Shown here: positions 6,001-7,123 of the stretch, one piece after another | How the letters are laid out: each line of letters opens with the position of its first letter | Position numbering within the stretch: the first letter of the stretch is position 1 | IMG/VR virus record: IMGVR_UViG_2737471845_000004 | Length of the DNA stretch: 7,123 bases | Strand: one strand, 5' to 3' | Origin: a virus | Lineage: Duplodnaviria; Heunggongvirae; Uroviricota; Caudoviricetes | Position numbers: made by a program

Positions 6001-7123
6001 GTTCTGATGAAAGTTTTGCATGAATAGATAATTCAACTTGTCCGTAATTAACAAATGGCCCCAAAACCTCAACTTTAGTGATTTCGATGCCGCTACCACT
6101 AGATAACTGTTTCATTCTGGCTGAAACATCTCTAGTTTTTCCCACCTTCACTAATCCAATATCAGACAGTGCGACATAGATATAACCACCTTCATGATTA
6201 GATGGGATAACAAAATTTTGTTGGCTCTGGTTTTCAGGCCGAACGAAGCCCCGCCCCTGTACGGGCGTTTTTGGAAATTTCATAAAAACTCCTGCTATCG
6301 AATTAAGTTACTTTTATTTGCTGGTGGATAGCTGGGGGCAATAGCCCCGTAGCCATTTAATCAGGTAGCTGTTCCGCGTGATTCCGCAATACGCTGATTA
6401 ATCCACTCGTCAATTTCACTCTCAACGAAAGCAATAGCTCGCGAGCCAATTTTAACTGATGCAGGAAATTTACCTTGCCCCATAAGGCGATAAATCCATG
6501 CCTTGCTATATCCAGTTCTACGCTGAACTTCCGTTAAACGAATAAGCGTATTTGACATATATTTACCTCATAACGTCTACTCAATTTGACGAGGTAATCA
6601 TGGCACAGAAATAACGAATATTTTCATACCCTCAGGCCTAATGGTAATCGGGAATATTTTTACCCTAAGGGTAATAGTAAAATTGATGGGAAAGCATACA
6701 AAAATACCCTAAGGGTGAGGTCTGATTACCCTTAGGGTGAGACGCGAACAAAACATGAGATACCACTAGGGTAAGGCTTCATCGTTTGATAGGACAGGCG
6801 ACAAGCTCAATAGATGCGGCCTGTCGGGAGGTAAAACCTCGTTTTTCAAGCTCAGTAGTAATCGCGCCCTGGTTTCCCCTGGTGGCGCGGAGCCTGTTCA
6901 GGATTCTGTGTAAATACCTTTTCTCAGAAGTGGCCGTCCAGGCGGTCACCGAACTCGATAATAAAGCGGCTCATTGCCATACGCCAGTCCCGCAGTGGCA
7001 TCGTCCATTTCTGTGAAGCCGCCTGGATTGCCAGCCACACCACTTTTTTCACCGAGTCGTCTGTCGGGAACACTTTACGCTTTTTGATCGCATGGCGGAT
7101 CACGCTGTTTAGCGACTCGATGG

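What the first reader, a model, noticed from the sequence alone, without database searches (positions are those of the whole stretch)
6627..6773. Helically phased array of TACCCT-W-AGGGTR palindromes between the IS end and the alpA-like gene
Four good copies and one degenerate copy of a 13-bp palindrome lie at spacings near multiples of 11 bp, upstream of the alpA/vis-like gene. This looks like a cooperative binding array for a dimeric regulator (possibly the AlpA/Vis-like protein itself or an integrase/excisionase partner) controlling the excision or late promoter. I cannot link the motif to a known binding site.
Basis: seen in the sequence. Interest (0 to 1): 0.5.

Follow-up and report, generated by a model that had tools for sequence, protein, structure and literature searches.

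The report
Operator array upstream of satellite alpA
A real, evolutionarily conserved row of evenly phased palindromes sits in front of the master switch gene (alpA) of an E. coli phage satellite, and comparative evidence suggests it is the docking site of an uncharacterised regulator encoded just upstream (destroyed here by an insertion sequence), not of AlpA or the integrase.

Summary
Three perfect ACCCTnAGGGT palindromes (6661, 6705, 6727), one decayed copy (6761) and one promoter-proximal site lie upstream of alpA, spaced 34/44/22/34 bp. A 13-bp pattern search gave 8 strand hits against 0.29 expected by chance.

The proximal "degenerate copy" is really a split palindrome, TACCAT-N8-AGGGTA (6627-6646).

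In 35 distinct related regions from several Enterobacterales genera, the palindromes keep fixed distances from the alpA start while the spacers diverge. Spacings cluster at about 22, 33, 43 and 55 bp.

The motif tracks neither AlpA nor the integrase. Loci with near-identical AlpA, or with an identical integrase, lack it. It occurs in all 44 loci, and only in those, that carry one class of gene in the variable slot between int and alpA. That gene encodes variable N-termini, a coiled coil and a conserved roughly 70-aa C-terminal domain. It has no Pfam, PDB-sequence or fold match.

Divergent subfamilies of this protein carry variant palindromes. Other slot-gene classes have other repeats.

My best reading is an operator array for this slot protein that controls the alpA promoter. 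Whether it represses or activates is unresolved. In this window IS1414 has truncated the slot gene, so the array is orphaned. Binding is inferred, not shown.

The parts
6627..6646 (-). Promoter-proximal split palindrome. On the alpA strand it reads TACCAT-N8-AGGGTA. Its right half (6627-6632) abuts the putative -35 hexamer.
   Evidence: Sequence. The same ACCCT-N8-AGGGT arrangement, directly 5' of ATGAAAA, is seen in Salmonella and other relatives.
6661..6673 (.). Perfect palindrome TACCCTAAGGGTA, centred 109 nt before the alpA ATG.
   Evidence: A site at 107-109 nt is present in nearly all of the 35 distinct related regions.
6705..6717 (.). Palindrome TACCCTAAGGGTG, centred 153 nt before the ATG.
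6727..6739 (.). Palindrome TACCCTTAGGGTG, centred 175 nt before the ATG and 22 bp from the previous site.
6761..6773 (.). Distal, decayed site TACCACTAGGGTA (2 mismatches), centred 209 nt before the ATG and starting 5 bp after the upstream gene's stop codon.
   Evidence: In most other lineages the site at 205-207 nt is a good palindrome. In L001 it has decayed further.
6597..6605 (-). Putative extended -10 of the alpA promoter (TGc CATGAT). The weak -35 TGAAAA lies at 6621-6626, and the predicted start site is near 6590.
   Evidence: This is the only promoter-like element whose position is conserved (43-45 nt before the ATG) across type-A regions. The consensus scan found no strong promoter. 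It is a prediction and has not been mapped.
6563..6597 (-). alpA leader hairpin whose 3' arm contains the Shine-Dalgarno sequence (ACCTCGT ... ATGAGGT).
   Evidence: The hairpin is kept with at least 6 different stem sequences across AlpA subfamilies.
6361..6558 (-). alpA, 65 aa, Phage_AlpA family. AlpA is the master activator of Gram-negative PICIs.
   Evidence: Pfam PF05930, E = 2.4e-19. Function taken from PMC6092414.
6779..6889 (-). Remnant (last ~37 codons, ...RATRGNQGAITTELEKRGFTSRQAASIELVACPIKR) of the ~255-aa 'slot' gene that lies between int and alpA in intact relatives. This gene encodes the putative cognate regulator.
   Evidence: The window aligns to L001 up to 6889. The intact gene is annotated as hypothetical in L001 and L002. 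The protein family is described.
6888..7123 (-). End of an IS1414 (IS256-like) copy that truncates the slot gene.
   Evidence: 100% identity to annotated IS1414 transposase copies from query position 288 onward.

Best explanation
The array is the cis-regulatory (operator) region of the alpA promoter of a Gram-negative phage-inducible chromosomal island (PICI). Each ACCCTnAGGGT palindrome would be one binding site for a dimer of the protein encoded directly upstream, in the variable slot between int and alpA. That protein has interchangeable N-terminal domains, a leucine-zipper-like coiled coil and a conserved ~70-aa C-terminal domain ending in ...ACPIxR.

The sites lie on one face of the helix, spaced at multiples of about 10.9 bp. 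Four or five dimers could therefore bind cooperatively from the stop codon of the slot gene down to a split site that abuts the weak -35 of PalpA. This would set the level of alpA transcription and hence whether the island is induced.

Shown: the sites, their phasing, their conservation, and their exclusive association with this slot-gene class.

Inferred: that the slot protein binds them, the promoter position, and the sign of regulation. Conditional on binding, my split is roughly 50% repressor or roadblock that keeps alpA off until a helper-phage signal acts on the variable N-terminal domain, 30% sensor-activator, and 20% other.

In this window IS1414 has removed all but 37 codons of the slot gene, so the array is an orphan operator.
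For: 1. The motif is real and non-random: 8 hits against 0.29 expected.
2. Phylogenetic footprint: in 35 distinct upstream regions from E. coli, Salmonella, Symbiopectobacterium and Pectobacterium, palindromes sit about 108, 150, 174 and 206 nt before the alpA ATG while the spacers diverge. 113 of 121 neighbour spacings fall at 21-24, 32-34, 42-44 or 55 bp. The array also grows by 33-bp tandem duplication.
3. Exclusive co-occurrence: the motif is found in all 44 loci whose slot gene has the type-A C-terminal domain, even when the protein is only 31-47% identical. It is found in none of about 39 loci with other slot genes.
4. AlpA is excluded as the correlate: L146-150 have an AlpA with 2 substitutions and no motif.
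5. The integrase is excluded as the correlate. The genes downstream of alpA also vary.
6. Specificity covaries with the protein. The P0079/P0080 subfamily (Salmonella, Dickeya) has inverted TACCGTGAGGGTA pairs. P0081 has TACTATCATAGTA. P0082 has ACCCTAAT-N11-ATTAGGGT. The distantly homologous type-B C-terminal domain (hhalign probability 79%, E = 1.6e-5) goes with ATGGTG/CACCAT-type repeats.
7. Other slot-gene classes carry their own repeats, for example ACCGCAATTGCGGT x2 and TTCCAAA. This suggests a cassette of regulator plus operators.
8. The protein has a confidently predicted long helix followed by a three-helix C-terminal bundle (pLDDT 82.5), compatible with a dimer presenting two DNA-reading heads.
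9. The literature shows that the alpA promoter region is the control point of PICI induction, and that its cis elements and any global repressor are undefined (PMC6092414, PMC11773190).
Against: - No direct evidence of binding exists.
- The array is physically adjacent to the slot gene. Co-inheritance as one recombination cassette would give the same co-occurrence without any functional coupling.
- In the P0079/P0080 loci AlpA is also divergent, so that covariation does not separate the two proteins.
- The strongest sites lie at about -77 to -177 relative to the predicted start, which is unusual for a simple repressor. The promoter itself is only predicted.
- The experimentally studied PICIs EcCICFT073 and EcCIMP1 have neither a slot gene nor this motif. 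Published reporter data therefore do not bear directly on this array.
Confidence: 0.6

Rival explanations
1. The palindromes are AlpA's own autoregulatory sites. AlpA dimers would bind them and activate PalpA, which is known to be positively autoregulated in PICIs.
For: AlpA activates its own promoter in EcCICFT073 and EcCIMP1. The array lies upstream of a weak promoter, where activators usually bind. In the divergent L208 and L213 loci both AlpA and the motif differ.
Against: L146-L150 encode an AlpA identical to the window's except at residues 2 and 4, so the HTH is identical, yet their upstream regions lack the motif entirely and carry other repeats. Type-A loci span AlpA identities from 34 to 100%. 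Excisionase-family proteins such as AlpA, Vis and Xis typically bind direct repeats as monomers; this is from my own knowledge and was not tested. The DNA shared by all AlpA subfamilies is the -10/leader region, not the array.
Confidence: 0.12
2. The sites are bound by a helper-phage-encoded or host-encoded factor, for example the unknown phage inducer of alpA. On this reading the slot gene is only linked to the array by adjacency.
For: Helper phages induce alpA transcription through an unidentified factor. The slot protein has no recognisable DNA-binding fold. Adjacency alone could explain the co-inheritance.
Against: The motif is kept with slot proteins as low as 31-47% identical, across several genera and with different integrases and AlpA types, but is never seen with other slot genes in otherwise near-identical islands. 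Variant slot-protein subfamilies have variant motifs. No homolog of the C-terminal domain exists in 50,697 phage genomes, so at least that domain is not of phage origin.
Confidence: 0.12
3. The array is structural or recombinational DNA rather than a transcriptional operator. Candidates are integrase arm-type sites, a replication origin or iterons, a packaging site, or an RNA or cruciform structure.
For: The sites are repeated and phased. The region folds better than shuffles as RNA (z = -2.7), because the palindromes can pair with one another.
Against: - The array does not track the integrase. It lies about 2.2 kb from the tRNA att site.
- PICI origins lie downstream of pri (PMC10111431). These sites are palindromes, not iterons.
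- Each palindrome has a 1-nt centre and cannot form a hairpin. Centre bases of neighbouring sites are complementary in only 13 of 29 cases, while the ACCCT/AGGGT sequence itself is conserved. Selection is therefore on sequence, not on pairing.
- No terminator-like site is present and there is no Rfam match.
Confidence: 0.05

Closest known systems
SaPI Stl master repressor with its operators in the stl-str intergenic region (Gram-positive PICIs)
   Same: Both are satellite-encoded regulators sitting next to the integrase, with multiple operator sites that control the first gene of the induction cascade. Both have a diversified, non-DNA-binding part that could sense different helper-phage proteins, and a modular cassette that differs between islands.
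   Different: Stl is divergently transcribed, has a recognisable HTH, and is experimentally shown to be a repressor. Here the gene is co-oriented with int and alpA, the putative DNA-binding domain is C-terminal and matches no known fold, and both the sign of regulation and the binding itself are untested. Gram-negative PICIs have been described as lacking a known global repressor (PMC6092414).
Lambdoid immunity regions (cI/Cro with OR/OL)
   Same: Both have several dyad-symmetric sites with neighbours about 22-24 bp apart, cooperative binding by dimers, and regulator and operators exchanged together as a cassette between otherwise similar elements.
   Different: Lambda operators overlap the core promoters. 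Here the strong sites lie upstream of the predicted -35 and extend over about 150 bp in helical phase. There is no divergent promoter pair.
AlpA-dependent autoactivation of PalpA in EcCICFT073 and EcCIMP1
   Same: The gene (alpA), the position in the island, and the role of this promoter as the control point of induction are the same.
   Different: Those two islands have no slot gene and no ACCCTnAGGGT motif. Their int-alpA spacers carry other repeats, for example GAACAAC-type direct repeats in CFT073.
P4 Vis / CP4-57 AlpA (excisionase-family regulators)
   Same: All are Phage_AlpA-family proteins encoded next to int in P4-like or PICI elements and implicated in control of excision and int.
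   Different: The palindromes do not track AlpA. No Vis-type site was identified.

Membership tests
Operator array of a mobile-element regulator (immunity-type cassette) | Several copies of one dyad-symmetric site, more than chance would give | tested here: met
   8 strand hits against 0.29 expected. Consensus wACCCTnAGGGTw from 61 distinct 13-mers.
Operator array of a mobile-element regulator (immunity-type cassette) | Sites conserved in sequence and position among diverged relatives while the flanks drift | tested here: met
   35 distinct regions with site centres about 108/150/174/206 nt before the ATG and diverged spacers.
Operator array of a mobile-element regulator (immunity-type cassette) | Sites at or overlapping the regulated promoter | tested here: inconclusive
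   Only a predicted weak extended -10 promoter is available. The split proximal site abuts its -35, and the other sites lie upstream.
Operator array of a mobile-element regulator (immunity-type cassette) | Cognate DNA-binding regulator encoded in the same cassette | tested here: inconclusive
   The co-occurrence is exclusive (44 of 44 loci against 0 of about 39), and the motif varies with the protein subfamily. However, no DNA-binding fold or family was recognised.
Operator array of a mobile-element regulator (immunity-type cassette) | Demonstrated protein-DNA binding and a regulatory effect | not testable with these tools
   Needs EMSA or footprinting and reporter assays.
AlpA/Vis/Xis binding sites | Sites co-vary with, or are always present with, the AlpA protein | tested here: not met
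   L146-150 have an AlpA with 2 substitutions and no motif. The motif is present with AlpA 34-100% identical.
Integrase arm-type sites | Sites track the integrase and lie within the att arms | tested here: not met
   L150 and L180 have an identical integrase and no motif. The array lies about 2.2 kb from the tRNA att site.
Intrinsic terminator or structured RNA | Stable stem-loop with a loop of at least 3 nt and a U tract, or pairing maintained by covariation; a known Rfam family | tested here: not met
   The palindromes have 1-nt centres. No terminator-like site was found. Centre complementarity holds in only 13 of 29 cases. No Rfam hit.
Gram-negative PICI (the element that carries the array) | Unidirectional int - alpA - primase organisation at a tRNA or other att site, with no phage structural or lysis module | tested here: met
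   Intact relatives L001 (tRNA-Gly) and L002 (tRNA-Thr) have int, the slot gene, alpA, Icd-like, DUF4222, primase and PerC. The window itself has alpA, primase and ProQ/FinO but has lost int to IS1414.

The most novel reading that the evidence does not exclude
The variable genes in the slot between int and alpA, including the type-A family found here, would be the missing helper-phage sensors or master regulators of many Gram-negative PICIs. They would be functional analogues of SaPI Stl. They would carry a new, fold-unassigned C-terminal DNA-binding domain that reads ACCCTnAGGGT operators, plus swappable N-terminal domains that determine which helper phage induces the island. The phased array would be their operator at PalpA.
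Probability: 0.35. Interest if true: 0.75.

Novelty: new variant of a known kind. Interest (0 to 1): 0.58.

Why it matters
How helper phages switch on Gram-negative PICIs is an open question. AlpA is known to be the activator, but the cis elements of its promoter, the phage inducer, and whether any island-encoded repressor exists are all undefined (PMC6092414, PMC11773190).

This array gives a concrete, conserved cis element. Its exclusive association also points to a candidate trans factor: an uncharacterised protein family of about 115 representative clusters, found in the sampled loci between int and alpA, with variable N-termini. That makes the question directly testable with EMSA, reporters and helper-range swaps.

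It also suggests that the int-alpA slot is a specificity cassette with at least 10 alternative gene classes, each with its own repeats. This could explain helper specificity and aid satellite annotation.

Tried and rejected
Only L052 (Symbiopectobacterium) was relevant. L072 was an unrelated transposase-associated repeat.
- Pfam, PHROGs, NCBIfam and PDB sequence searches of the slot protein gave only sub-threshold coiled-coil hits. Pfam on 93 distant relatives gave nothing consistent, apart from one LacI-type Peripla_BP fusion that may be a gene-call artefact.
- tblastn of the C-terminal domain against 50,697 phage genomes found no match.
- The experimentally studied islands EcCIMP1 and EcCICFT073 have no slot gene and no motif. 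Their published promoter data cannot be transferred to this array.
- The consensus promoter scan found no strong sigma-70 promoter. A lenient PWM scan found lineage-specific candidates that use TTACCC as a pseudo -35, but only the TGcCATNAT element is positionally conserved.
I replaced it with per-sequence folding.
- The literature searches found no description of the palindromes or of the slot gene.

Full report
**What is in the window.** All genes relevant here are on the minus strand.
- alpA (6361-6558) is a 65-aa Phage_AlpA protein (Pfam E = 2.4e-19).
- Downstream lie a T5orf172/MUG113 protein (5447-6283), a P4-type primase (1090-2895) and a ProQ/FinO protein (175-717).
- Upstream of alpA is a 220-bp non-coding stretch (6559-6778) that holds the palindromes.
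- Next come the last ~37 codons of a gene (6779-6889), and then the end of an IS1414 copy (from about 6888).

Two intact relatives in complete E. coli genomes show the original order. It is tRNA - int - a 255/265-aa hypothetical gene - the array - alpA - antA/Icd/DUF4222 - primase - PerC. This is a Gram-negative phage-inducible chromosomal island (PICI).

**The observation.** The pattern with up to 2 mismatches gives 8 strand matches, all in the array. The expectation from shuffles is 0.29, and none of 200 shuffles reached 8. There is no other copy in the window, nor within 9 kb either side in L001 and L002.

Two refinements follow from relatives. The 6627 'degenerate copy' is the right half of a split palindrome, TACCAT-N8-AGGGTA (6627-6646). 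The 6761 copy is a decaying version of a site that is a good palindrome in most lineages.

**Conservation.** I collected 80 viral-contig loci encoding AlpA relatives of 77-100% identity. I added loci from Salmonella, Dickeya, Pectobacterium and a Symbiopectobacterium MAG.

In 35 distinct upstream regions the ACCCTnAGGGT palindromes lie at nearly fixed distances from the alpA ATG (about 108, 150, 174 and 206 nt). The sequence between them is largely unalignable between lineages. Neighbour spacings cluster as follows:

| Spacing (bp) | Count |
|---|---|
| 21-24 | 30 |
| 32-34 | 50 |
| 42-44 | 32 |
| 55 | 3 |
| total spacings measured | 121 |

These are multiples of about 10.9 bp. Some E. coli variants add sites by tandem duplication of a 33-bp unit, which preserves the phase.

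Over 61 distinct 13-mers, the ten ACCCT/AGGGT positions are each conserved in 51-61 of the 61 sites, while the centre is free (A10 C16 G15 T20).

**Who goes with the motif.**
- Not AlpA. L146-L150 have an AlpA that differs from the window's only at residues 2 and 4, yet they have no motif.
- Not the integrase. L150 and L180 carry an integrase identical to L001's and have no motif, while motif-bearing loci have integrases 35-100% identical.
- Not the genes downstream of alpA, which vary.

The motif is present in all 44 loci whose gene between int and alpA has one particular C-terminal domain, and in none of about 39 loci where that slot holds another gene. The association holds when the slot protein is only 31-47% identical to the E. 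coli one.

Clustering by the C-terminal 80 residues gave 10 slot-gene classes. Several have their own repeats: ACCGCAATTGCGGT x2, TTCCAAA direct repeats, GCATGCA, and ATGGTG/CACCAT-type dyads. The slot therefore behaves as a cassette of a gene plus its repeats.

**The slot protein.** Homologs are all annotated as hypothetical and come from Enterobacterales. They come in two forms:
- a long form of about 250 aa, with at least four unrelated N-terminal domains;
- a short form of about 145 aa, sometimes preceded by a separate, overlapping 101-aa ORF that corresponds to the long form's N-terminus.

Shared parts are a heptad coiled coil and a ~70-aa C-terminal domain:

ERPILLxxYRDDDPLxLAIxIRNxEWxNYDPxNDRATRGNQxAIxxELxxxGFxxxQAxxIExVACPIxR

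P, D, L, A, R, W, A, I, E and the ACPI.R motif are invariant.

A profile search of 1.84 billion representative proteins found only 115 clusters. The domain is always C-terminal, and the N-termini have no Pfam match. AlphaFold2 gives a confident model (pLDDT 82.5): an alpha/beta N-domain, a disordered linker, a long helix and a three-helix C-terminal bundle.

No family or fold match was found, and no homolog exists in 50,697 phage genomes. A DNA-binding role is therefore inferred from context, not from homology.

**Covariation of protein and site.**
- The P0079 (Salmonella) and P0080 (Dickeya) subfamily has TR[AV]NQ and ACPIDR in place of TRGNQ and ACPIKR. It carries two inverted copies of TACCGTGAGGGTA with different spacers.
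- P0081 has GKTAQNG...ACPIDRG and goes with TACTATCATAGTA.
- P0082 keeps the ACCCT half-sites but in the arrangement ACCCTAAT-N11-ATTAGGGT.
- The type-B slot proteins have a C-terminal domain distantly related to type A (hhalign 79%, E = 1.6e-5, 71 columns). They go with a different dyad.

This is what a cognate regulator-operator pair would show. The numbers are small, however, and in the P0079/P0080 loci AlpA is divergent too.

**Relation to the promoter.** No strong sigma-70 promoter is present. The only positionally conserved candidate is an extended -10, TGcCAT(G/C)AT, 43-45 nt before the ATG (window 6605-6597), with a weak -35, TGAAAA (6626-6621).

With a start site near 6590, the site centres fall at about -46 (split site, right half at -42 to -37), -77, -121, -143 and -177. 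A weak promoter fits the literature: PalpA is off until a helper phage and AlpA itself activate it.

The geometry does not decide between a repressor, a roadblock or an activator. There is no terminator between the slot gene and alpA. A bound array could therefore also block read-through from int and the slot gene.

**Rivals.**
- AlpA and integrase binding are contradicted by the distribution data above.
- A phage or host factor cannot be excluded, but it does not explain why the motif is limited to one slot-gene class, or why it varies with that protein.
- RNA or cruciform structure is unlikely. Single palindromes have a 1-nt centre. Neighbouring sites have complementary centres in only 13 of 29 cases. 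Selection acts on the ACCCT/AGGGT sequence itself. The favourable fold z-score of -2.7 is a by-product of repeated palindromes. Rfam finds nothing.
- A replication origin is unlikely, because PICI origins lie downstream of pri and these sites are not iterons.

**What is known.** The papers I could search define AlpA as the autoactivating master regulator. They state that the phage inducer and any global repressor of Gram-negative PICIs are unknown (PMC6092414; PMC11773190; PMC10111431). None mentions these palindromes or the slot gene. The two experimentally studied islands I checked, EcCICFT073 and EcCIMP1, lack both.

**Verdict.** The array is a genuine, selected, helically phased set of protein-binding sites upstream of alpA. 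It is most probably the operator of the adjacent slot-encoded coiled-coil protein, at about 0.6 confidence. It is a new variant of a familiar kind of system, a mobile-element regulator with its operator cassette, involving a protein family with no assigned fold or function. In this particular window the regulator gene has been destroyed by IS1414, so the array is probably non-functional or unregulated here.

Noticed in passing
window 6563-6597 (minus strand), and the equivalent position in L123-L202, L052 and L210: The alpA leader forms a hairpin whose 3' arm contains the Shine-Dalgarno sequence. Across AlpA subfamilies the stem sequence differs but the pairing is kept. Examples are ACCTCGT/ATGAGGT, CTCGTAA/TTACGAG, GCTCCTGTAG/CTACAGGAGC, TCTCCCGT/ACGGGAGA, CACCTT/AAGGTG and ACCTCA/TGAGGT. 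The mean probability that the SD is paired is 0.91, against 0.66 when the upstream part is shuffled (25 distinct leaders). The predicted -10 overlaps the 5' arm. The hairpin could therefore form only in read-through transcripts from int or the slot gene, which would be a fold-back insulation like that of IS10. This rests on an unmapped start site.
   Followed up: partly
L123-L202, between int and alpA (for example L146:2029-2745, L153:1478-2137, L158:1811-2824, L181:1932-2810, L201:1842-2804): The slot between int and alpA holds 10 unrelated or distantly related gene classes of about 200-340 aa, almost all without a Pfam match (one is DUF6387). Several have their own repeat type in the alpA-upstream spacer. 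This looks like a swappable specificity cassette.
   Followed up: partly
L124, L135 and relatives, 109-175 nt before the alpA ATG: The array expands by tandem duplication of a 33-bp unit (ACCCTTAGGGTagatttcctcccgattaccatc). Each duplication adds one palindrome per three helical turns. Between one and three copies of the unit are seen among E. coli isolates.
   Followed up: no
L204:3199-3935 and L052:1415-2148: In Salmonella and Symbiopectobacterium the slot protein is split into a 101-aa ORF and a 143/144-aa ORF with overlapping stop and start codons. Together they correspond to the N- and C-terminal halves of the 255-aa E. coli protein. This is either a gene fission/fusion or a programmed two-protein arrangement.
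   Followed up: no
L212:8160-8260 (E. coli CFT073, EcCICFT073 int-alpA spacer): The model island EcCICFT073 has no slot gene. It carries a run of GAACAAC-like direct repeats at roughly 10-11-bp intervals just downstream of int, and GACACAA repeats just before alpA. These are a different candidate cis element for the published PalpA and Pint results.
   Followed up: no
window 3964-5454 (minus) and 4478-4822 (plus): A 496-aa minus-strand ORF spans a region where relatives are annotated with several small genes and a plus-strand YlcI/YnfO-family gene. The long ORF is probably spurious. I did not examine it further.
   Followed up: no
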